From Narcine bancroftii (taxonomy: Eukaryota), in the NCBI RefSeq assembly GCF_036971445.1, contig NC_091474.1, positions 176,886,001 to 176,950,000 of the forward strand: a DNA stretch of 64,000 nucleotides, in the 5' to 3' direction. Shown in pieces: positions 7,001-61,600 of this stretch. A model generated the notes under the pieces. The model had not been told where the DNA came from and did no database searches. It saw only the letters and a list, made by a program, of their open reading frames with translations. Position 1 is the stretch's first letter; the number at the start of each line of letters is the position of its first letter. The position numbers were made by a program, and so were the translations under genes.

Positions 7001-7220
7001 AGCTGTCCCTCCTACCATTTTGCAAATAAATTAATTGCCAAAATGATGTAAAAGGCCACACATTTGAAAGGGTTAGCTTGGCATCTTAAAGGTTCTCTCT
7101 TAACTTTAGCCGCTCCACTCCGGGGAATGTTGCTTGCTGAATGCTGGCCTTTGAAATAGGCAGAGGGTTTTTTTATTTGAAATGACTGTTGTATTCTGTC
7201 ATCTTTTTTAAGGCATAGAT

Positions 7221-7577
7221 CAGTGGTTCTCAACCTTTTTCTTTCCACTCACATACACTTTAAGTAATCCCTACTTCATCAGTCTCTGTGATTAGTAAGG
7301 GATTGCTTAAGGTGGTATGAGGGTGGGAAGGGAAGTTTGAGAATCACTGCTTTAGACCCAATTGTTATGAAGTATTTTGCTTGAGAAAAATTGTCATTGG
7401 CCCATTTCCTTTGGAGTTATGAAACCATGCACATAACAGCACAATTAGGTATGATTAAAACATTTTCTTTCCACTCACATACCACCATAAGCAATCCCTT
7501 ACTAATCACAGAGCTCTGGTGGCATAGAGAATATTTAAAGTGGTATGTAGTGGAAAGAAAAAGGTTGAAAACCACTG
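7221..7577. mobile_element. hAT-Charlie-like MITE made of two palindromic subunits, nested in the cargo
   Basis: TIRs cagtggttctcaacc / ggttgaaaaccactg; 8-bp TSD gcatagat / gtgtagat (both derivable from gcgtagat by CpG decay); internal TIR copy gtttgagaatcactg at ~7335-7349. Confidence 0.85.
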
Positions 7578-8071
7578 GTGTAGATTATTTTCCATTATCT
7601 CATATATCCTACACTACGTTGGATATGACTATTTTATAGTTCTACAGTGGTGAGGATAGGTAGGGACAGCGAAGTGGATGGTGTGGTGGCAGCAAGGGAT
7701 GGTTGCTCAGTGAAGGCAGGTTTGAAGTAAGTTTTAATGGGGGTGGGGGAAGGCACAATTTCAGTGCTCGCCATAGGTGCTATTTTCCATCGATATGCCA
7801 CTGAAGACAATGTGTTCCCTGCAGCCATCACAGTCCAGAATGAACCTCATATCAGTGCTAACACGCTGCACTTGCTTGCTGCTAATTTATTTTCCTTTAC
7901 ATCGTAAACTCTGTAAATTGTGCTTTTACACTCCTGTATGAATGTTAGAGATAATTTGTTGTGTTCACAGGTAAAAATTCCTTTTCACTGTATGAAATAT
8001 TTTGTGACAAATAAACAAATTAAAACAGAAAATGATGAAAACACTCAACAAGTTTAGCAGCATCTGTAGAA

Positions 8072-38949: not shown

Positions 38950-41390
38950 TTTTTCATGGTACTCAACAAAAGTATATTCCAGTTAAAAACAAGGACAGTA
39001 AAGGGTGGGGACAGCCAGCCTTGGATAGCTCAGGAAATAGAGGAAGGAATCAAGCAAAAAGCTTGTGTGTACAAGGTCGCCAGGAGCAGTGGGAAACTAG
39101 AAGGTTGGGAAAACTATAAAAAGCAACAAAGAACCACAAAGCGAGCAATAAAGAGAGGGAAGATAGATTATAAAACAGGGTTAGCAAAAAATATAAAATG
39201 AACTAAATTTTAAAATAATTATATGAAGTGCAAAAGGGTGGCTAAAGTGAAGCTTGGTCCCTTGAAAGACAGGTAGGTAGAGATGAGCCTATCATCAGAT
39301 CAGCTATGATCTCACCGAATGGCAGGGCAGGCTCGACGGGACGGATGGCCTACTTGAAAAATGATAAGGGGGAATTGATATTGGGTAATGAGGAAATGGC
39401 TGAGACTTTGAATGGCTATTTTTCATCAGTCTTCATGGTGGAGGACACATCAACCATGCCAAAGAGAGATGCTATGGATATGATGGGAGGTGATGACCTA
39501 GATGCAATAGTTATCATTAAAGAGGTAGTAATAAGCAAACATGGGTCTAAAGATAGATAAATCCTCTGGTCTTGATGGAATGCATCTCAGGGTACTGTAA
39601 AAAAAAGGCAGCAGTTAGAGCAGAGACTTTAGTGATAATGTACCAAAATTGCCTGGACTCTGCAAAGGTCCCAGTGGATTGGAAGATGGTGAATGTAATG
39701 ATTATTTTTAAAAAAAGATGCAGGCAAAAGTCAGGGAACTATAGGCAAGTTAGTTTTACATCTGTGCTGGGGAAAATGGTTAAATCTGTCATAAAAGAAG
39801 AAATAGCGAGGTATCTGGAGCTAAATGGATCCATCAAGCAGATGCAGCATGGATTTAGCAAAACCAGGTCCTGCTTGACAAACACTGAATTTCTTTGAGG
39901 ATATGATGAGCACTGTAGATAAAGGGGAACAGATGGACTTTGTTTACTTTGATTTCCAGAAGATATTCGAGAAGGTACTGCATGAAAGATTTATACATAA
40001 GATAAGGATGCATAAAGTTGGGGGGGGGGGGGTGATGTATTATGGATGGAGTATTGGTTAACCAATAGAAAACAGAGAGTTGAGATACCAGGGGTGTTTT
40101 TCTGGTTGGCAATCTATGGTGAGCGAGGTTCCACAGGGGACAGTGCAGGGCCCACAATTGTTCACGATATTCATCAATGATCTGGAAGAAGGGACAAAGT
40201 GTAATGTATCTAAGTTTGCTGAAGACACTAAATTGATTTGAAAAGCAAATTGTGTAGAGGACATGGAGAGCTTGCAGAGAGATATAGACAGATTAAGTGA
40301 ATGGGTAAGAGTCTGGCACATGGAGTACAATATTGGTAAATGTGAGATTATCCATTTTAGAAGGAAATATGGAATATCAGATTATTATTTAAATGTCGAA
40401 TGATTACAGTATGCTGGTGTGCAGATAGACTTGGGAATGCTTGTGCATAAATCACAAAAGGTTTGTTTGCAGGTGCAGCAGGTTAACAGAAAGGCCTTCA
40501 TTGCTAGAGGGATGAAATTTAGGAGCAAGGAGATTATGCTGCAACTGTACAAAATACTGGCGAGGCCACATCTGGAGTACTGCATACAGTTCTGGTCTCC
40601 TTGCTTGAGGAAGAATGCACTGGCTTTGGAGGTGGTCCAGAGGAGGTCCACCCAGGTTGATTGCAGAGATGAGGGCTTAGCCTATGAAGAGAGATGGAGC
40701 CATCTGGGGCTGTACTCACTTGAATTTAGAAGAATGAGTGATTTTTTAGAAATTGACCACCGCCAGTGGGCTGATATCGCCTCAAACCGTGCATCTTGGC
40801 GCCTCACAGTTAGGAGGGCAGCAACCTCTTTTGAAGAAGACCGCAGAGCCCACCTCACTGACAAAAGACAAAGGAGGAAAAACCCAACACCCAACCCCAA
40901 CCAACCAATTTTCCCTTGCAACCGCTGCAACCGTGTCTGCCTGTCCCACATCGGACTTGTCAGTCACAAACGAGCCTGCAGCTGACGTGGACATTACCCC
41001 TCCATAAATCTTTGTCCGCGAAGCCAAGCCAAAGAAAGAAGATAAAATTATGAATGACAAATTGAAGATAGAGGTAGGAAAGTTGTTCCCAATTGTGAGG
41101 GAGACTAGAACTAGAAGACATCACCTCAAGATCCAGGGTAGTAGATTTAGGATAGAGATGCTTTTCCAAGAGAGTGATGAATCTGTGAAATTTGCTGCCC
41201 ATTGAAGCAGTGGAGGCTGCCTCAGTAAATATATTGGATAGATTTTAACAAAGCTTGGGGATTAAGGTATATATAGAAAAGGCAAGTAGTTAGGATGAGC
41301 CTATCATCAGATCAGCTCTAATCTTGTTGAATAGCAGAACAGGCTCGATGGGATGGATGGCTTACTCCTGCCTGCTCCTATTTCTTATGT
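38950..41390 (+). mobile_element. CR1 ORF2 (post-endonuclease to 3' UTR), decayed, with two insertions
   Basis: PWIAQEI; EEMAETLNGYFSSVF; PVDWKMVNV..GNYRQVSFTSVLGK; QHGF; KFAEDTKL; RPHLEYCIQFWSP; tail tttcttatgt. Confidence 0.9.
40752..41040 (+). mobile_element. Young RTE copy 2 (3' ~290 bp) inserted in CR1
   Basis: IDHRQWADIASNRASW...SHKRACS*; tail gccaagccaaagaaagaa. Confidence 0.9.
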
Positions 41391-49300: not shown

Positions 49301-52300
49301 TAACTGTCAGCTCAAAGGTTCTTCCTTGTAAGATAGTTTCAAGGACACCGTGCATAGGAGATGTGTGAATTTGGTGGTTGATTGTCTCATGACTAAGTAC
49401 CAATTTTTACCCATTATTTTAGAGATCCAATAACAACTAAATTTATCCTTGCTTTTAAGAGCCTTGTTATAGACAATTCCGCTGGCCTGGTGTTAAGGTT
49501 CTATTTTTTGATTTGGGTTTCCCTAGTTTATCTGAATTTTTTTTATTTGAAATGGAATACTTATGCAATGCAACTTAAAGGCTGAAATACCAACAAATCA
49601 TAAAATTATGTATAATTCTACATTCAGGAACATAAAACATTAATATCCCAAAATGAACAATGGTAAACTCTTTGTTAGTCATAATTAATAGCAAAGTAGT
49701 ACTTTCATTTTGAGTTAATAATCACGTAAACTTGCCTGACATTGATTTGAAGATGGAAGCCCTTCAATTACTTGGATAAAAACTAAGATATTGTCATCAG
49801 AATGCTGGCGAGGAAAGATAAACCCATTAAATGTCCCTAAACAGTTTTAAGAGGATATGTATAAGAGAGGGATGATAATAAGGATGTTGTACCATGGTGT
49901 TTAGCAGATATTGAAAGGCTCAATTGTCAAATAGAGAAAAGCAAAAACTGCAGATGCTGGAATGTTGAGCAGACAAATGTTGGAGAAATTCAATATCAGA
50001 TAGCATCCTTGGGTAGAAATGGTCAGTGAATACATGGAAAAGTGTTACTTAAATCTTCGGCCATTGATGGGTCAGTGATGAAACTTCGGCGAGGCACCTT
50101 TGACGGGTCAGCTAGAGCAGTAGTGAGGCCCAGTGGGAGCAGTGGTGGGAGCTGGACTTGGCGAGGTGAGGTCTGGCAGGAGCAGTGGCGTGGTGCCGGA
50201 CTCGGTGAGGTGAGGCCCGTGGGAATAGTGGTGAGGAGCACAACCCAGACGTCGTGAAGTCCAGTGGGAGCAGCGGCAAAGGGAAGTTCCATTTTTGATT
50301 TTTGATATTTAAACAATTAGAATAAGAATTAGAATTACCATTGCTGGTAATTTCATTATTTCCAGGAGCTCTGCTTGATTCCCATTAGGGAGCTGGGAAG
50401 GAATTTCTCAAAGTTTTCCCTGAAATTGGCCACAGGTTTTTTTTTGCCTCTTCCAGGAGTCATATTACCAGCATATTAGGGCAGAGAGTGGTAGTAATGC
50501 AAAAGGAACAGTGGAGATAAATAGAGAGAAATTAGGCCATTTCAGGTGAACCCTCGACCTTGAGGCCAGCGATTGGTGAGACTTGGTTGCAGGAGGGGTA
50601 GGGCTGGCAGTTCAATGTTCTAGGGTTCTCTTGTTTCAGGCATGATAGAGGGTATGAAACTGGGAGGAGTGGCATTGCTAGTCAGGGAAAATGTCACAGC
50701 TGTGCTCAGACAGTACAGCTCAGAGGCCATATGTGTGGAGCTGAGGAATGGGAAAAGTGTGACCATACTGATAGGGTTATATTATTTACTGCCCAATATT
50801 CAGAGCAAATTGGAGGAGCAAATCTGCATAGAGATAGCAGACCAATGTAATAAACAAAAAGTTGCGATAGTATGAGATTTTAAACTTTCCATGTATTGAC
50901 TGGGACTCCCATACTGTAAAAGGACTGGATGGCTTGGAGTTTGTCATTTGTGTTCAGGGATGTTTTCTAAATCAGTATATAGAGAGGATGCAATACTTGA
51001 TCTCCTATTAGGGAACCAGACTAGTCAGGTGTGGTTATACAACCATCAGGTGACAGAAGTATGGGTAGGTGAACATTTTGGGTTCAGTGATGATAATTTC
51101 ATTAGTTTCAAGTTAATTATGGACAAGAATAGGTCTGGTCTTCGATTTGAGATTCTAAATTGGAGAAAGGCTAATTTTGTGGAAATGAGAAAGGATCAAG
51201 GAGGAGTGAATTGGGATGAGTTGTTTTCTGGCGAAGATGTGCTTAGTAAGTGGAAGGCCTTCAAAGGCAAAAATATGAGAAAGCAGCGTTTGAATGATCC
51301 TGTCAGGATTAAAGGCAAAATTAACAGGCATAGGGAATCTTGGTTTTGAAGTGATATTGGTGATCTGGTGAAGACGAAGAGAGAGGTGTATAGCAGGTAT
51401 AGGCAACAAGGAGCAAATGAGGTACTAAAAGAATCTAGAAAATTTAAGAAAATACTTAAGAAGGAAATCAGGAAAGCAAAAAGAAGACATGAGGTTGCTT
51501 TGGCAGATAATGTGAAGGTAAACCCAAAGGGTTTCCACAAGCATGTTAAGAGTTAAAAGATAGTTTTAAAAAGTTGAAGACAGCTTTGAAGCAGAGAGAT
51601 TTTTGTCTTTTAATCAAATGAAAGAGAAGTTTCAAATCCCTTCGAATACTTTTCTCTTATTATCAGTTTAAAAATTTTTTATCGGAACAATTAGATCACA
51701 GTTTAAAATTACCTAGGCAGTCTTCTTTGGAATTATTACTTACTAAGGATGATTCAAGTACATTTATTTCTGAGATGTATAAGTTATTACAAAATAAAAT
51801 GCCAAATTAGATGTTCATAAATCAAGAGTGAAATGGGAATTGGATTTGAATTGAAAGTTTTTGGAGAAATTTGGATAGTATAACTCAGGTTATAAATGTA
51901 TGTTATAGATTGGTGCAGTATAATTTCTTACATCAATTGTATTTAACCTCTCAGTAATTGAAAAAAAAATTAACTTAGTTCTTCAGATTTGTGTTTTAAG
52001 TGTGGTCAAGAAATAGGTACTTTTTTTCATTCGACTTGGACTTGCCTCAAAGTTAAAAGTTTTTGATTACAAATTAAATTGTTTTTAGAACAGGTATTAA
52101 AAGTGAATTTACCTTTTGATCCATTTTTGTTTTTAGGATTGACATTGACTATGTATCAAATTGAATTTTTACATTTGGTTTTGGCTGTTTCTAAAAAAGA
52201 ATGTTTTAACTATTACATGGAAGTCTGATTTTGTTTTAAGCATGAAAAGATGCATAATGAAATGAAAGCTTGTGTTCCTTTAGAAAAAATTACATAGAAT

Positions 52301-52596
52301 TTGAAAGATAAATACTTTGTCTTTATTAAAATATGGATCCCATATTTTAAAGTTATTGGTATTAAAATTTGATCTCTTGATCTGCTTCAGTGGATGTCAC
52401 CACTTCCGCAGCCACGAAGTTTGAATATGATTGTATTCGCTGATGACCTCCTTTTTCTTTCTTTTGTAGGTGGGTGAGGAAGGAGGGAAGGTATTAGTGG
52501 GGTGGTTGGGGAGGTTGTTCTTTTTAATATATCTAATCACATCATGTACTGTAATCAATGTTATGTTAAGTGATTTCAAATTTTAAATAAAATATT

Positions 52597-54463
52597 CTTT
52601 CTTTGGCTTGGCTTCGCGGACGAAGATTTATGGAGGGGGTAAAAAGTCCACGACAGCTGCAGGCTCGTTTGTGGCTGACAAGTCCGATGCGGGACAGGCA
52701 GACACGATTGCAGCGGTTGCAGGGGAAAATTGGTTGGTTGGGGTTGGGTGTTGGGTTTTTCCTCCTTTGCCTTTTGTCAGTGAGGTGGGCTCTGCGGTCT
52801 TCTTCAAAGGAGGTTGCTGCCCGCCAAACTGTGAGGCGCCAAGATGCACGGTTTGAGGCGTTATCAGCCCACTGGCGGTGGTCAATGTGGCAGGCACCAA
52901 GAGATTTCTTTAGGCAGTCCTTGTACCTTTTCTTTGGTGCACCTCTGTCACGGTGGCCAGTGGAGAGCTCGCCATATAACACGATCTTGGGAAGGCGATG
53001 GTCCTCCATTCTGGAGACGTGACCCATCCAGCGCAGCTGGATCTTCAGCAGCGTGGACTCGATGCTGTCGACCTCTGCCATCTCGAGTACTTCGACGTTA
53101 GGGGTGTAAGCGCTCCAATAGATGTTGAGGATGGAGCGGAGACAACGCTGGTGGAAGCGTTCTAGGAGCTGTAGGTGGTGCCGGTAGAGGACCCATGATT
53201 CGGAGCCGAACAGGAGTGTGGGTATGACAACGGCTCTGTATACGCTTATCTTTGTGAGGTTTTTCAGTTGGTTGTTTTTCCAGACTCTTTTGTGTAGTCT
53301 TCCAAAGGCGCTATTTGCCTTGGCGAGTCTGTTGTCTATCTCATTGTCGATCCTTGCATCTGATGAAATGGTGCAGCCGAGATAGGTAAACTGGTTGACC
53401 GTTTTGAGTTTTGTGTGCCCGATGGAGATGTTGGGGGGCTGGTAATCATGGTGGGGAGCTGGCTGATGGAGGACCTCAGTTTTCTTCAGGCTGACTTCCA
53501 GGCCAAACATTTTGGCAGTTTCCGCAAAGCAGGACGTCAAGCGCTGAAGAGCTGGCTCTGAATGGGCAACTAAAGCGGCATCGTCTGCAAAGAGTAGTTC
53601 ACGGACAAGTTTCTCTTGTGTCTTGGTGTGAGCTTGCAGGCGCCTCAGATTGAAGAGACTGCCATCCGTGCGGTACCGGATGTAAACAGCGTCTTCATTG
53701 TTGGGGTCTTTCATGGCTTGGTTCAGCATCATGCTGAAGAAGATTGAAAAGAGGGTTGGTGCGAGAACACAGCCTTGCTTCACGCCATTGTTAATGGAGA
53801 AGGGTTCAGAGAGCTCATTGCTGTATCTGACCCGACCTTGTTGGTTTTCATGCAGTTGGATAATCATGTTGAGGAACTTTGGGGGACATCCGATGAGCTC
53901 TAGTATTTGCCAAAGCCCTTTCCTGCTCACGGTGTCGAAGGCTTTGGTGAGGTCAACAAAGGTGATGTAGAGTCCTTTGTTTTGTTCTCTGCACTTTTCT
54001 TGGAGCTGTCTGAGGGCAAAGACCATGTCAGTAGTTCCTCTGTTTGCGCGAAAGCCGCACTGTGATTCTGGGAGAATATTCTCGGCGACACTAGGTATTA
54101 TTCTATTTAGTAGAATCCTAGCGAAGATTTTGCCTGCAATGGAGAGCAACGTGATTCCCCTGTAGTTTGAGCAGTCTGATTTCTCGCCTTTGTGTTTGTA
54201 CAGGGTGATGATGGTGGCATCACGAAGATCCTGAGGCAGTTTACCTTGATCCCAACAAAGCTTGAAAAACTCATGCAGTTTGGCATGCAGAGTTTTGCCG
54301 CCAGCCTTCCAGACTTCTGGGGGGATTCCATCCATACCTGCTGCTTTGCCACTTTTCAGTTGTTCGATTGCCTTATATGTCTCATCCAGGGTGGGAACCT
54401 CATCCAGCTCTAGCCTTAGGGGCTGTTGAGGGAGCTGGAGCAGGGCGGAATCTTGGATCCAAG
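52597..54463 (-). mobile_element. Young RTE copy 3 (1.87 kb, 5'-truncated) inserted in the L1 tail
   Basis: Perfect 11-bp TSD aataaaatatt (52586-52596 / 54464-54474); tail ctttctttggcttggc. Confidence 0.95.
52653..54458 (-). CDS. RTE reverse transcriptase, uninterrupted ~600-codon frame, lacking the endonuclease and start codon
   Basis: GKAAGMDGIPPE, NYRGITLL, QCGFR, FVDLTKAFD, GVKQGCVLAP, LFADD, FTYLG and a C-terminal CxxC..H..C; the native TGA is TGT in this copy. Confidence 0.9.
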
Positions 54464-55753
54464 AATAAAATATTAAACAAAGAGTAAAAGGATAGTAAAG
54501 GACAAAATTGGTCCCCTGGCAGATCAGAGTAGTCATTATGTGTGGAGCCTCGAGATGGGGGAAGATCTTGAACAGTTTTTATTTTGCATCAACATTTACT
54601 CAGGAAACTAGCATAATATATAAGGAAGAAAGGTAAACAAGCAGTAGTTGCATGGAACATATAGTGATAAAAGAGGAGGAAGTGCTTGCTGTTTTAAAGC
54701 AAATAAGGGTGGATATTCCCTTAGAGCTTGAGGTAGACTAGTGTAGAAATTGCAGGGTCCCTTGCAGAAATATTTTAATTGTCCTGAGCTGTGGGTGAGA
54801 TGCCTGAGGATCTGAGGGTAGCTCATGTTGTTCTGTTGTTTTAAAAAAAAGGCTCCAAAAATAAACTAGAAAATTATAGGCTGGTGACCCTGTCATCAGT
54901 AGTAGGTAAATTATTGAAGGATGTCCTGAAATATCGGATTTACAAGTATTTGGACAACCAAGGGCTGATTAAGGATAGTCAACATGGATTCGTGTGTTGT
55001 AGGCCGTGTTTAACAAATCTTATAGTTTTTTTTCAGGAAGTTACCAAGAAAGTAGATGAAGAAAAGTCTGTGGATGTTTTGTCGAGGTGGACTTTAATAA
55101 GCCCTTTGACGAGGTCTCACATGGGAGGTTAGTTCAGAAGGTTCAGACACTAATTATCAATGGAGAAGTTGTAAACTGGATATGAAATTGGCTTAATGGG
55201 GGAAGACAGAGTGGTAGTATGATTGCTTCTCAGACTGGAGGATTAGTGATGTACTTCAGGATTCAGTGTTGGGAGCATTTTTTTTTGTTGTCTATATCAA
55301 TGATTTGGATGATAATGTGGTAAACTGAATCAGCAAGTTTGCTGATGACACTAAGACTGGAGGTGTGGTGGACATTAAAGAAGCTGTCAAAGCTTGCAGA
55401 GGGATCTGGGCCAGCTTAAAAATGGGCAAGTGAATGGCAGATGGAATTTAATGCAGACAAGTGTGAAGTATTGCATTTTGGAAGGACAAACCAAAGTAGG
55501 ACATACAGAGTAAATGGTAGGGCGCTGAGGAATGTGGAGGAACAAAGGGGTCTGAGAATGCAGATACATAATTCTCTGAAAGTGGTGTCACAGGTAGACA
55601 GGGTTGTAAAGAAAGCTTTTGGCATCTTGGCCTTCATAAATCAAAGTTTATATTTTCAATACTTTTATTGGATTTTGAAGAAATACTACATAAATAGAGC
55701 CATTAATTCAAGGTAATATATATATTAAAAAAATACACACAAAAAAAGTTATA

Positions 55754-56251
55754 CACATACTCCCTGACTTGCAACCTGTGTTAAAAATATAAAGAAAAAT
55801 ATTAAATTTACGTTATTTATGTTGTATTTGACAAACTATAACAGGGATAGAGAACATGTAAGAGCCAAAATGTGCGTACTTACCTTGTTAGTTGGCATCC
55901 CGTAGACTAGGCACAGCCACCTTGATTCCTGTGTGCATGAGCGAGTCTTCACTTGGCGTATACACAACTTGCATATTGGAGTTTAGTAGGTGCACGTGCA
56001 AGAGTTAAGGCCGCAAACTCAATATTGTTAGGGCGCTTAACTCTCATGCAGGCACCAACCGAACTCCAATATGCGAACCCACTGTGCATGCGGTAATCAA
56101 AGACTCGCGCATGTGCACAAAATTCAAGATGCCACACCTAGCCTACAGATCCTGGGATACTGACTAACAAGGTAAGTATATATATTTTGGCTCTTACCTG
56201 CCCTGGATCCCTGTTATAGTTTGTCATATACAACATAAACCACATAAATCT

Positions 56252-56286
<35 letters not shown>

Positions 56287-56385
56287 TATTTTTTTTAACA
56301 AATGTACTCAAATCTGACATACGTCCATTTCGAGATGCAACCAATCCTTCGATCTGAATTATTGTTGTAAGTCGGGGAGTACCTG
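55754..56385. mobile_element. Tigger/pogo-like MITE with a ~520-bp internal palindrome, in the L1 3' UTR
   Basis: TA|cacatactccctgacttgcaac ... gttgtaagtcggggagtacctg|TA; arms ~55779-56010 and ~56035-56300 are reverse complements; (TA)n expansion in the right arm. Confidence 0.85.
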
Positions 56386-57863
56386 TATAAACTCAGTCAA
56401 ACAGAGCAAAAAGAAATTAATAAACACAAACAATTATGACATATGGCTAATTGAAAAAAAAGATTTTTTAAAAAGTAAATAGTATACTATTCTACAAATT
56501 CTACCCCCCACCCTTCTGAAGTTAACTGGTAAGTACATATAATTTCACTTACCATTAAAAGAAACCACAAACTCACAAAATAATACTAAGTGATCTTATA
56601 AATTACAAAAATAATTAATAAAAGGACCCCATAAATTTAGAAAATTTAAATCCATTACAAGGTGGGACAGCATCTTTCCATCTCATCAATATTGAACATC
56701 TAGGAGGCAAAAGAGACTACATGGGATTGAGACATAGTTAAATTCAAATCAGTTGTCTTAGTTGATCCGAAAAGGGCAATTATAGGATTAAGTATTAGAT
56801 TCACATTGAGAACTAAAGATAAGGTACAAAAGATATCTTCCCAAAAATTGAAAGAGAGGAACAAGATCAAAACATATGTAACAAAGTACCTTCTTCAGTC
56901 TTACACCTGTCACGTTTTAAGGAAATGCTAGAGTAAAATTTAGCCAATTGAACTTTAGAAAAGTAAGTTTGATGTACTCCCTTAAATTGTAAAAGCGAAT
57001 GTTGGACACACAAAGAAGATGAATTTACCAATTTTAAGATAGAATCCCATGTAGTATCTGAAAATGAAAGTTGAAGATCTTGCTCCCATAATTTTTAAAT
57101 CTTAACTAGAGATTAATCCTAAGGTTTTAATAATAAATCATATATAGCTGATATCATTTTTTTAAAATTCAGTTTTTAGTTATTTTCTTTCTCACAAGAT
57201 ACTGAGGAAGGACTCAACACTATAGGTTTCAAAAAACTTCTATTTTGTAGGTATCTAAAAAAAATGATGTTTGGGTAGTTTAAACTTAAGAGATAGTTTT
57301 TCAAACGAGGCTAAATTATTATCAATAATAAGGCTTGAAAAGATTGGATACCAACTTAAGCCATTCATGAAAAACAGATTCTTGCACAGAAGGTGGGAAA
57401 AAAAATTAAGTAATACAGGGGTAGCAAATAAAATATGTAAAGTTCCCAGCCTTGGTGGTCTTCCAGCTGAATTTTATAAAACTTTCTTGCAGTCATTGGC
57501 ACCCCATTTAAATTCAGTTCTTTCTGAATCTTTTACTTTTGGGAAATTACATACTACTTTCTATGAAGCCTCAATTTCACATCCCCAGAAAGAATAAAGA
57601 CTTACCTATTTGCTCTTCTTATGAGCCAATCTCTCTTTTGAATGCTGATTCTCTGTCTAAAATATTGACCTGAAGGAGGAAAACTTTATGCCTCTCATTA
57701 CTGTATTCCTGAAGATCAAACTGAGTTTATTAAAGGACATTTTTCACAATTTAATATTCATCATTTATTAAATGTTCTTTACTCTTCTCCTGTTTCAACT
57801 TCTGAGTATGGTATCTCATTAGATGCTGAAAAAGGCTTTTGATAGGGTAGTAAGGGACTATTT

Positions 57864-58667
57864 TACCTATCTCGGCTGCACCATTTCATCAGATGCAAGG
57901 ATCGACAATGAGATAGACAACAGACTCGCCAAGGCAAATAGCGCCTTTGGAAGACTACACAAAAGAGTCTGGAAAAACAACCAACTGAAAAACCTCACAA
58001 AGATAAGCGTATACAGAGCCATTGTCATACCCACACTCCTGTTCGGCTCCGAATCATGGGTCCTCTACCGGCACCACCTACGGCTCCTAGAACGCTTCCA
58101 CCAGCGTTGTCTCCGCTCCATCCTCAACATCTATTGGAGCGCTTACACCCCTAACGTCGAAGTACTCGAGATGGCAGAGGTCGACAGCATCGAGTCCACG
58201 CTGCTGAAGATCCAGCTGCGCTGGATGGGTCACATCTCCAGAATGGAGGACCATCGCCTTCCCAAGATCGTGTTATATGGCGAGCTCTCCACTGGCCACC
58301 GTGACAGAGGTGCACCAAAGAAAAGGTACAAGGACTGCCTAAAGAAATCTCTTGGTGCCTGCCACATTGACCACCGCCAGTGGGCTGATAACGCCTCAAA
58401 CCGTGCATCTTGGCGCCTCACAGTTTGGCGGGCAGCAACCTCCTTTGAAGAAGACCGCAGAGCCCACCTCACTGACAAAAGGCAAAGGAGGAAAAACCCA
58501 TCACCCAACCCCAACCAACCAATTTTCCCTTGCAACCGCTACAATCGTGTCTGCCTGTCCCGCATCGGACTTGTCAGCCACAAACGAGCCTGCAGCTGAC
58601 GTGGACTTTTTACCCCCTCCATAAATCTTCGTCCGCGAAGCCAAGCCAAAGAAGAAAGAAAGAAAAG
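57864..58667 (+). mobile_element. Young RTE copy 4 inserted in the L1 RT
   Basis: Perfect 12-bp TSD aagggactattt (57852-57863 / 58668-58679); near-identical to copy 3; tail aagaagaaagaaagaaaag. Confidence 0.95.
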
Positions 58668-61600
58668 AAGGGACTATTTATTTAAGGTACTAGAAAAATT
58701 CAATGTTGGTTCTAAATTTATTAATTGGATTAAATTGATATATTTATCTCCTTTTCCCTCAATTTTTACCAACTTTTTAAAATCCAAACCCTTTCATCTT
58801 CACCGTGGAAGATGGTTGTTTTCTTAGCCCAATAGTAATTAATTTGGCATTAAATCCATAAGCACTGGCCTTTTGGCAATCTAATTACATCTATGGTTTC
58901 TTAAGAGGTAGAAGTGATCATAAAGGTCTCTTTATATGCTGATGATGATCTGTTGTATATTTCGGACCTTGATTGTTCAATCCCATCCATTTTGTCACTC
59001 CAGCACCAATTTGGCCAAGTTTCAGGTTATAAATTGAATCTTCAGAAAAGTGAGTTGTTTGTATTGAAGTCTTCTAACTCTCTAGATACTGCCCTTCCCT
59101 TTAAATATCTAAAAGTCAATTTAATTATTTAGGTGTTGGTATTACTAAAAATTATAATGATTGGTTTGAAGAGAATTTTCTTACTTGAATGAATTATGTT
59201 AAGAAGCCTTTAGCTCAGTGGTCTCCTCTTTCAATGTCCTTAATTGGATAAATTAATATAATTAAGATGAATATCCTACCCAAGTTTTTATATATTTTCC
59301 AAACTGTTCCTGTTTGTGTTCCCAAAACTTTTTTGATTGACTTGAACTAAATTATTTCCTCATCTTTGCAAAAATAGGTGTCCTCATCTTAGTAAAGTTT
59401 TCCTTCAAAACCTTTAAAAGAAAAGGGGTTTGGCTGTATCTTTTTTTTTTAGATTTTATTATTATTATTAAATGTATCTTTTTTTTAAATTCATTAAAAG
59501 GACAGAATGGATGCTCCAAATTAGATTAATTTGGAACTTAATTCTACTAGATAAATTCTCTTATTTCAATACTTGGAATGCGATTACATTTTTTCTGCTT
59601 CCAAATTAACTGATCATTTTGTTTTGAAGCATGCTTTGAGAACTTGGTTTCAATTTATAAATCAAAGTATTGAGTATAGGAGTTGGGATATTATAATGAG
59701 TTTGTATAAAACATTGCTGAGGCCAAATTTGGATTATTTTGTGAAGTTCTAGTTGCCTAACGACAGGAAGGATATCAGTAAAATTGAAGGAGTGCAGAGA
59801 AGATTTATTAGGATGTTGCCAGGTCTTCAGGAGTTGAGTTACAGGGAAAGATTAAACAGGTTAAGACTTTATTCCTAGGAGCGTAGAAGAATGAGGGGAG
59901 ATTTGATAGAGGTTTACAAAATTATGAAGGGTATAGACAGAGTAAATGTGAGTAATTCTTTCCACAGATTAGGACAGATAAATATGAGAGAACATGGCTT
60001 TAAGGTGAAAGGGGAAAGGTTTAGGGAACATTAGGGGGAACTTCTTCACTCAGAGAGTGGTGGGAATGTGGAACGAGCTGCCATCTGTCCTGGTAAATAT
60101 GGGCTCAATCTTTTGTTTTAAGAATAAATTGGATAGATACATGAATCAGAGAGGTCTGGAGGATTACAGAATAGGTTCAGGGCAGTTGGACTACCAGAAT
60201 GATATTTTGGCACAGACTAGAAAGACCAAATGGCCTATTTTCTGTGCTGTATTGTTCTATGGCTTCCTATGTTTACAAATCTTGGTAACTTCCCACATTT
60301 TTTCTCTGCAAATGCTGCATGGAGCTTAATTGCTCACCCTAGTAAGTAAACATTTAAACAGCTATCTACTAACTCTGATTGTATTTACTCTTCTTTTGGT
60401 TGAGGGAAATATTTTTGCCAAAAATTATCTTGAAGATATTTACAAAATTCAGTAACATTTTGTTGTGGGTAAATCTGAAATTGCAAAGAAATTAAAATGA
60501 AATATTTTATCAAAACCATTCAGACTTTATTTCGTGTTGTAATTTTTCCTTTGGAACATCCTACCACTTCATAGCTGACGTTGGGGTTGGGGTAACAAAT
60601 TGGATTATCCAGAGAACTGGGTTATTGATGCAGCTTCTCTGCCTCTGATGCCATAACATGGCAACTCTTTGCTAACCTTGGAATAGCACGCAGAAGAAAG
60701 CTTTCCACTGAATCTTGGTGCACGTGGAAATAATAAATAAATCTAAATTGAAATCTAAATCTAAGGTCAAAGAGTTTGAATTCCATCAGAGTAGTGAGAG
60801 AATTTAAATGCAGGTAATTAAATTGTGTTCTGGAAACTACTAGATCCTTGTAAAAACCCAGCTGTGAAACACACAACCATTAAATTTCTATAATATTCCA
60901 GCTTTTACAGGAAATCTCCAAGCCACTGTCTAATTTGATTTTGCTCAATTCCTGAAGAGCTTGCTGCTGAGCACTGTAGAACTGGTGTTAAAAACTAGTT
61001 TTTGTTGAGGCATTTTATTAGAGGTAAAACAGACTGAAATTTAGCTGAGTTTCACTGATCACTTGGAATAAAGCTAGGTCTCCAATCACATCATAGTAGT
61101 TTAAAGTGGGTGAGAATAGTGATCCATCAAGCATGGACACAACATGCATTAATCAACCATCGCACAAGATCTTAAACTTCTGCATAGCTCTTGGCTAGTG
61201 TTTGTTGGCATGCATAAGATTCAGTTTGTGGGCTCGCAATTTTTACACAATGAGAAGGTGAGCAAGGAGAACACTTGTTTTATATAACTAGATGAAAATA
61301 ATACAGTTGATTGTATGAGATAATTCATTAATGGCTTGCATTTTGCAAACTGGGTCAGCTGATGAAAGCTGAGCTTCCTTTGCTTTTGTTAAATGCTGAA
61401 CTTAATGAACTTCTGTACCTTTCGATTGGAGTTCAGATGCATTAGGAATGCAGCTGTTTGTGGCACAGCAACTAATTCCGATCAATCCTCCGGGGAATGC
61501 CTGCAGAATGCTGTACAGTGGCTTAGTTACTTTTAAATGATTACTTTAGTTAATGCTGGGTACAGCAGCAGATCTTTCGAGCAATTGATACAACACGGTG

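What the first reader, a model, noticed from the sequence alone, without database searches (positions are those of the whole stretch)
55636..59668. L1 with twin-priming-type 5' inversion in a non-mammalian genome
Seen: one perfect 12-bp TSD encloses a minus-strand L1 3' part (polyA signal, CCHC domain, beginning at about PVLLN..PPS) and a plus-strand ~1.4 kb RT part (RTE insert excluded) running GLPAEFYK to LRTWFQF. The WFQF end abuts the TSD, and in fish L1 ORF2 this motif lies just upstream of where the non-inverted part begins. Known: this is the geometry of the twin-priming model, characterised mainly for mammalian L1. Inference: twin priming operates for this lineage's L1s. How novel this is outside mammals needs a literature check.
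Basis: partly seen in the sequence, partly recalled or inferred. Interest (0 to 1): 0.7.

Follow-up and report, generated by a model that had tools for sequence, protein, structure and literature searches.

The report
Twin-primed L1 copy in a ray
An old, dead L1 jumping gene, probably in a ray genome, was inserted with its front half flipped, matching the "twin priming" pattern well known from human L1; the mechanism is familiar, but a clear example this far from mammals suggests it may be an ancient trait of vertebrate L1s.

Summary
A 12-bp duplication (55636-47, 59657-68) brackets a 4,009-nt insert inside a CR1 repeat, and other CR1 copies are contiguous across the site. Against a full-length fish-type L1 ORF2, the plus segment covers aa 480-953 and ends on the base next to the duplication. 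The minus segment starts at aa 958-966 and runs to the 3' end. The breakpoints are therefore 12-36 nt apart. Both halves are equally diverged and rank 13 references alike (rho 0.80). A contig with no differences spans the inversion junction (one sample). Best reading: twin priming (0.85). Not shown: microhomology at the primer end, a clear poly(A) tail, the human-type nick site, long-read support, and any genome-wide frequency. The host is probably a ray. Ten literature searches found no fish or shark example, but key papers were not held, and one zebrafish Nimb-2 inversion in chicken cells is in print. This scan noted similar inversions earlier on other DNA (an RTE family; primate L1). Verdict: known mechanism, new lineage, single copy.

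The parts
55080..55635 (+). Host CR1-type LINE, part upstream of the target site (label CR1 recalled from its motifs; it may extend further left)
   Evidence: 75.6% identical to the window copy at 14023-13452
55636..55647 (.). Target-site duplication at the L1 3' end
   Evidence: Exact 12-mer; empty-site joins and loose ends
55648..55751 (-). L1 3' end: distal 3' UTR, AATAAA (55669-55664) and short A-rich tail
   Evidence: Sequence view; assignment to the L1 3' UTR is inferred from position, no consensus available
55754..56385 (.). Later TIR element (MITE, Tc1/mariner-pogo-like by recall) flanked by TA at 55752-53 and 56386-87, with a long internal imperfect palindrome (55782-56273)
   Evidence: TIRs 18 of 22 identical; nested inverted repeats; summed contig depth 5,500-14,500 against about 1,000-1,700 in the adjoining UTR bins; no Rfam match
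56388..56598 (-). L1 proximal 3' UTR
   Evidence: Follows the end of the ORF2 alignment
56599..57438 (-). Non-inverted L1 ORF2 C-terminal part (reference aa ~958-966 to 1270) with a degenerate CCHC knuckle
   Evidence: 49.8% identity to P0008 over 271 aligned residues, 7 frameshifts, 5 stops
57422..57456 (.). Inversion junction zone (best estimate 57438-57446)
   Evidence: Codon-by-codon reading of both strands; spanned by a 375-nt contig with 0 differences, 57127-57501
57439..57863 (+). Inverted L1 segment, first piece (reference aa 480-621, start of RT); ends in the RTE's left TSD
   Evidence: 52.5% identity to P0008 over 139 residues
57864..58667 (+). Young 5'-truncated RTE-type LINE with its own 12-bp TSD (57852-63, 58668-79)
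   Evidence: TSD; 99.1% identical to the copy at 53390-52599
58668..59656 (+). Inverted L1 segment, second piece (reference aa 621-953; YADD, thumb, ends at WFQF next to the TSD)
   Evidence: 50.3% identity to P0008 over 324 residues, 6 frameshifts, 8 stops
59657..59668 (.). Target-site duplication at the inverted (5') end; the presumed second primer
   Evidence: Exact 12-mer; CR1 loose-end consensus differs from the window at the base before it
59669..60259 (+). Host CR1-type LINE, part downstream of the target site
   Evidence: 73.7% identical to the window copy at 13466-12866

Best explanation
One fish-type L1 RNA was inserted by twin priming into an older CR1 copy. Staggered nicks 12 nt apart opened the target. 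One end primed cDNA from the RNA 3' end back to about ORF2 codon 958-966. The other end annealed to the same RNA just after the WFQF codons and primed a second cDNA back to about codon 480. The two cDNAs were joined head to head, losing 12-36 nt. The copy then decayed and took up a TIR element and a young RTE. Shown: the structure, the TSD, the adjacent breakpoints and the two nested inserts. Inferred: the two priming events, their order, and use of a single RNA molecule.
For: One TSD encloses both halves, and the empty target is reconstituted by other CR1 copies. The 3'-most end of the inverted piece (aa 953) abuts the TSD to the base, and the non-inverted piece starts at aa 958-966. A randomly placed second fragment would end this close about 2% of the time (72/3,819 nt; my arithmetic). 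Both halves are 48-54% identical to two full-length ORF2s and carry similar frameshift loads (3/139, 6/324, 7/271). They rank 13 references alike (score rho 0.80), while the window's other L1 does not (rho -0.39 and -0.25), and they share sense-strand composition (T 38-41%). The junction is spanned by a contig with 0 differences at single-copy-like depth (8.6) in X1, X2 and X3. The sizes fit human twin-primed L1s: 88% of inversions under 1.5 kb, 61% with a junction deletion (10.1101/2021.12.20.472354, passages), and TSDs of 10-20 bp (PMC4245944).
Against: Primer microhomology is not shown. Simulated back-translation of the next four codons matched 4 or more of the first 8 TSD bases in 55% of draws against 20% at random positions, and the first base in 63%; this is weak and indirect. 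The nick at the 3' end reads AAGT/AT, not the human TTTT/A (consensus as in PMC2837659). There is no pure A tail. The 13 references are related to each other, and protein-level likeness shows the same lineage, not the same subfamily. The contig over the right TSD has only 26 letters beyond 59656, below the tool's 31-letter bridging rule. No listed piece covers the left TSD junction. X1-X3 are one sample, possibly the assembly's own.
Confidence: 0.85

Rival explanations
1. Repair-made inversion during integration: a single long cDNA was made by ordinary target priming, and its distal part was cut, flipped and end-joined to the other target end by host repair, with no second reverse-transcription priming.
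For: It gives the same final structure. Remodelling of L1-made break ends into inversions is described in human cells (10.1101/2024.12.14.628481, passages). Primer complementarity is not shown here.
Against: The examples I read there invert genomic DNA and often lose sequence. Here no CR1 base is lost or inverted and the TSD is perfect.
Confidence: 0.07
2. Two RNAs, or two separate L1 insertions at one site: the halves come from different molecules or families.
For: Dual priming by two RNAs has been proposed (PMC2837659, passages). No DNA-level family consensus was available to exclude it.
Against: The breakpoints are only 12-36 nt apart. There is one TSD. The plus piece has no 3' end or tail. 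The two halves have matching divergence and relative ranking.
Confidence: 0.04
3. An ordinary 5'-truncated L1 whose 5' 1.4 kb was inverted later by a genomic micro-inversion.
For: The copy is old, so there was time. An earlier scan note preferred this reading for a fungal LINE (e1-7146221, not checked by me).
Against: One breakpoint would have to fall exactly on the L1/TSD boundary by chance. No flanking CR1 base is carried into the inversion.
Confidence: 0.03
4. Misassembly.
For: No listed contig spans the whole element, no long reads were seen, and the left TSD junction is not among the listed pieces.
Against: A 375-nt contig with 0 differences crosses the inversion junction with at least 44 letters on the shorter side. 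The nearest N gap is at 31214-31737. An assembly error would not produce a TSD plus adjacent ORF2 breakpoints.
Confidence: 0.01

Closest known systems
5'-inverted (twin-primed) human L1 insertions (model of Ostertag and Kazazian 2001, paper not held; read as described in PMC2912911, PMC2837659 and 10.1101/2021.12.20.472354)
   Same: One TSD of 10-20 bp around two head-to-head pieces of one L1; inverted piece under 1.5 kb; small junction deletion; junction within 2 kb of the 3' end.
   Different: Fish-type L1 lineage in a probable ray genome; nick site does not read TTTT/A; no long poly(A) tail; old and decayed; frequency unknown (26-30% of human L1 insertions in the papers read).
Single 5'-inverted zebrafish Nimb-2_DR insert recovered in chicken DT40 cells (PMC4245944)
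   Same: A 5' inversion made by a non-mammalian LINE in a non-mammalian host; that element's TSD peak is about 12 bp, as here.
   Different: Different clade, engineered assay, one event. The same study saw no inversions for human L1 in DT40 or for ZfL2-1, and concluded that inversion depends on host and element.
Fish-type L1-clade ORF2 (P0008, P0010, tilapia P0007, Hypanus sabinus P0024)
   Same: Collinear RT, thumb and C-terminal domain at 43-54% identity; P0008 matches human ORF2p over its length (E 3e-196).
   Different: This copy lacks ORF1, the endonuclease and the first ~480 codons, and is broken by stops and frameshifts.

Membership tests
Twin-primed 5'-inverted L1 | A single TSD bounds both segments | tested here: met
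   12-bp TSD, empty site seen in other CR1 copies
Twin-primed 5'-inverted L1 | Head-to-head segments, with the 3'-most end of the inverted segment next to the 5' TSD | tested here: met
   aa 953 at 59656, TSD from 59657
Twin-primed 5'-inverted L1 | Breakpoints adjacent on the element, with a short deletion, duplication or blunt join | tested here: met
   aa 953 against aa 958-966, 12-36 nt missing, at protein resolution only
Twin-primed 5'-inverted L1 | Both segments from the same L1 | tested here: inconclusive
   Same lineage and similar decay; subfamily identity needs a DNA consensus that was not available
Twin-primed 5'-inverted L1 | Microhomology between the TSD end and the RNA at the second priming site (usual; 217 of 269 human cases) | tested here: inconclusive
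   Only simulated from homolog residues and codon use: 4 or more of 8 matches in 55% of draws against 20% null
Twin-primed 5'-inverted L1 | Microhomology at the internal junction (usual, not required) | tested here: inconclusive
   The two readings may overlap by 0-8 nt at 57439-57446
Canonical L1 TPRT insertion | 3' end with poly(A) signal and A tail next to the TSD | tested here: inconclusive
   AATAAA present 16 nt from the TSD; the tail is a 9-nt remnant with 7 A
Canonical L1 TPRT insertion | Human-type endonuclease site TTTT/A at the 3' end | tested here: not met
   The site reads AAGT/AT; only the T/A step is kept. The preference of ray L1 endonucleases is unknown to me, so this lowers 'human-like targeting', not twin priming
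L1 clade | ORF2 collinear with L1 ORF2p (RT, thumb, C-terminal CCHC) | tested here: met
   About 50% identity to P0008 over aa 480-1270; P0008 matches human ORF2p over its length and bears APE and RT Pfam domains
Lineage-wide twin priming | A measurable share of this family's copies are 5'-inverted | not testable with these tools
   No whole genome is held; only 15 of 1,076 joints were shown

The most novel reading that the evidence does not exclude
Twin priming is a routine outcome for L1 in rays, at a rate comparable to mammals. It would then be an ancestral property of jawed-vertebrate L1 ORF2p or of germline end-joining rather than a mammalian speciality. A further possibility is that the T-rich nick at the inverted end (TTTAT/GA, closer to the L1 endonuclease consensus than the tail-side nick) was cut and primed internally first, reversing the textbook order.
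Probability: 0.3. Interest if true: 0.55.

Novelty: new member of a known kind. Interest (0 to 1): 0.36.

Why it matters
The copy itself is dead and has no likely function. It matters as a data point. A cell-culture study concluded that 5' inversion depends on host and element and saw none for human L1 in chicken cells (PMC4245944). A clean germline case in a cartilaginous fish says the route is open to a distant L1 lineage in a distant host. A genome-wide count in rays would directly test whether twin priming is ancestral and whether its rate tracks TSD length. It also matters for repeat annotation, where such copies are split into two elements.

Tried and rejected
No whole genome was held, so no family consensus or genome-wide count was possible. 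A word-indexed protein search with the 75-aa C-terminal piece found nothing (0 of 13 candidates). The viral-contig scan gave 0 of 127 pattern matches confirmed. The metagenome scan gave 6 loci of 588 matches (42-54% identity, plus one 17-residue match at 71%); the four that cover the breakpoint region do not conserve it and were of no use for microhomology. The read-laying output was swamped by CR1 and RTE copies: no strand-changing joint was among the 15 shown of 1,076, and no L1-side loose end at 59656 was among the 24 shown. This is no evidence either way. An X5 contig whose match ends at 57456 has 31 unaligned letters, but their side is ambiguous, so I did not use it. Pfam gave no hit for the short window pieces P0001 and P0002 or the two other window fragments. 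Rfam gave no hit over 55600-56700. Earlier-findings look-ups by place and by sequence were empty, as was one by words. I rejected the TIR element as part of the L1, because it has its own TIRs, TA flanks and much higher depth. I rejected a re-transposed, already inverted source element as unlikely, because the copy would have to end exactly at the source's inversion point; this was not tested genome-wide. Four papers held nothing on non-mammalian 5' inversions in the passages read: PMC2718515, PMC11371274 and PMC5389967 use 'twin priming' only in the reference list, and PMC13174262 treats mammalian L1 chimeras.
Full report
Observation. The 12-mer ATAAATCAAAGT stands at 55636-55647 and 59657-59668, and once more at 25193 in another copy of the same repeat. 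The flanks are two halves of one CR1-type LINE (label recalled from its motifs). 55080-55647 and 59654-60259 match adjoining stretches of the window copy at 14023-12866 at 74-76%. Contigs from public runs reconstitute the empty site: 5 contigs in X1 and 3 in X5 join 55635 to 59657 with 12 letters fitting either side. 413 X1 contigs leave the window behind 55647 with the letters that follow the right copy. So this is a true target-site duplication with exact boundaries, and no CR1 base is lost or inverted.

Anatomy. A search with an in-frame piece of the plus segment returned 9 relatives among 27 candidates. They include two full-length ORF2 proteins (P0008, P0010) and a tilapia protein. P0008 matches human L1 ORF2p over its length (E 3e-196). 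A frameshift-aware alignment places the plus segment at P0008 aa 480-621 (57439-57861) and 621-953 (58675-59656), and the minus segment at aa 966-1270 (57422-56599). Reading both strands codon by codon against 15 homologs puts the minus start between the conserved Gly at aa 958 (57446) and aa 966, and the plus start between 57439 and 57457. The piece next to the right TSD is thus the 3'-most end of the inverted part, and 12-36 nt of ORF2 are missing between it and the start of the non-inverted part. The two readings may overlap by up to 8 nt at the junction; this cannot be settled without a DNA consensus. Without later inserts, the inverted part is 1,402 nt and the non-inverted part 1,157 nt. 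The CCHC knuckle has lost its first cysteine and about 23 codons near the C-terminus are gone. AATAAA lies 16 nt from the left TSD, followed by a short A-rich remnant rather than a poly(A) tail.

Nested elements. An RTE-type LINE (label recalled) interrupts the RT region with its own 12-bp duplication (57852-63, 58668-79). It is 99.1% identical to another window copy, so it is recent. A 632-nt element with 22-nt terminal inverted repeats (18 of 22 identical), TA flanks and a long internal palindrome sits in the 3' UTR. Its summed contig depth is several times that of the adjoining UTR (the tool warns that depth is no copy number).

Same element? The three aligned pieces are 52.5, 50.3 and 49.8% identical to P0008 and 54.0, 48.8 and 47.8% to P0010, with 3, 6 and 7 frameshifts over 139, 324 and 271 residues. 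I scored them against 13 references spanning both sides: 11 proteins picked by hand from the 161 then held and 2 of the 6 loci; P0024 and P0146 also touch both sides but were left out for short overlap. The two halves rank the references alike (score rho 0.80, identity rho 0.78). The window's other L1 fragment does not (rho -0.39 and -0.25). Sense-strand base composition also agrees. The references are related to each other, so the p-values mean little, and the test shows a shared lineage, not a shared subfamily.

Assembly. A 375-nt contig with no differences (57127-57501, depth 8.6) crosses the inversion junction in X1, X2 and X3. A 298-nt contig with no differences (59385-59682) crosses the right TSD but has only 26 letters beyond 59656, under the tool's 31-letter rule. 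No listed piece covers the left TSD junction or the whole element, and 327,603 pieces were not shown. X1-X3 are one sample and may be the assembly's own. No long reads were seen.

Host. The best identity for the window's RTE protein among the 120 listed hits is 91%, to a Narcine bancroftii protein. An L1 relative with the motif WFQFRK..SPILLNFFFKPS is from Hypanus sabinus. A ray, or at least a cartilaginous fish, is therefore likely. This is inference from mobile elements, and the RTE family is patchily spread over marine animals.

Mechanism. Shown: one TSD, head-to-head halves, adjacent breakpoints, and an exact TSD boundary. Inferred: after two nicks 12 nt apart, one target end primed at the RNA 3' end and the other inside the same RNA just after the WFQF codons, and the two cDNAs were end-joined. 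Against or open: the tail-side nick reads AAGT/AT, unlike the human TTTT/A. The nick at the inverted end reads TTTAT/GA, which is closer, so the order of priming cannot be told (inference). Primer complementarity was only simulated. Drawing the next four residues from 15 homologs and codons from this copy's own usage gave 4 or more matches in the first 8 TSD bases in 55% of draws, against 20% of 2,205 random positions. That is compatible with priming but weak. A repair-made flip of a single cDNA gives the same final structure and cannot be excluded from one copy. Two templates, a later micro-inversion and misassembly each need coincidences that the data do not show.

What is known. In humans, 330 of 1,271 polymorphic L1s are 5'-inverted, 88% of the inversions are under 1.5 kb, 61% of 273 junctions carry short deletions, and 217 of 269 TSD junctions show 1-9 bp microhomology (10.1101/2021.12.20.472354; passages). 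PMC2912911 (passages) gives about 30% and describes the model. PMC4245944 (passages and Discussion) found inversions only for human L1 in human cells, apart from one zebrafish Nimb-2_DR insert in chicken DT40 cells, and tied them to TSDs of 10-20 bp. PMC6007223 (passages) cites TSDs of 7-18 bp for mammalian and zebrafish L1. I also read passages of PMC2837659, 10.1101/2024.12.14.628481, PMC4476161, PMC13174262, PMC5389967, PMC2718515 and PMC11371274. No supplements were read; they could hold non-mammalian cases. Ten searches showed no report of genomic 5'-inverted L1 in a fish or shark in their listings. The search for 'twin priming' with 'shark' returned one review on human brain disorders (listing only). 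Several searches were broad and only their top rows were listed. The original twin-priming paper, the zebrafish L1 study of 2006 and Kojima and Okada 2009 were not held, and I did not try the 2008 vertebrate LINE survey, so absence from print is not established. Earlier notes of this scan describe 5' inversions in an RTE family of another genome and in primate L1s (unchecked AI notes).

Verdict. A real and fairly clean 5'-inverted L1 insertion, best explained by twin priming (0.85), in a lineage for which I found no published example. The mechanism is known, the evidence is one old copy, and the frequency is unknown. Novelty: new member of a known kind; interest 0.36.

Noticed in passing
window 55754-56385: High-copy TIR element with TA flanks whose interior (55782-56273) is one long imperfect palindrome (72% self-complementary over about 450 nt); also present in organism B's run. 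No Rfam match.
   Followed up: partly
window 25193-25210: Another CR1 copy carries 4 extra bases (ACAC) at exactly the same step where the L1 inserted, just after the 12-mer. Chance, or a site prone to nicking.
   Followed up: no
window 51570-52351 (+): A second, more distant and very decayed L1 3' fragment of another lineage; no inverted partner seen beside it in the translated search.
   Followed up: partly
window 52566-54578 (-), 57864-58667, 892-1283, 40752-41043: A young RTE family with four copies in the window (94-99% alike); one keeps a 670-codon open frame. Protein relatives at 72-79% come from a sea urchin, prawns, a medaka and a carp, which hints at horizontal transfer.
   Followed up: partly
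window 26333-26441: Short degenerate tandem array (14/29/43-nt periods), and palindromic repeats at 26647-26783 that match 7216-7583.
   Followed up: no
window 31214-31737: The only assembly gap (524 N), far from the finding.
   Followed up: no
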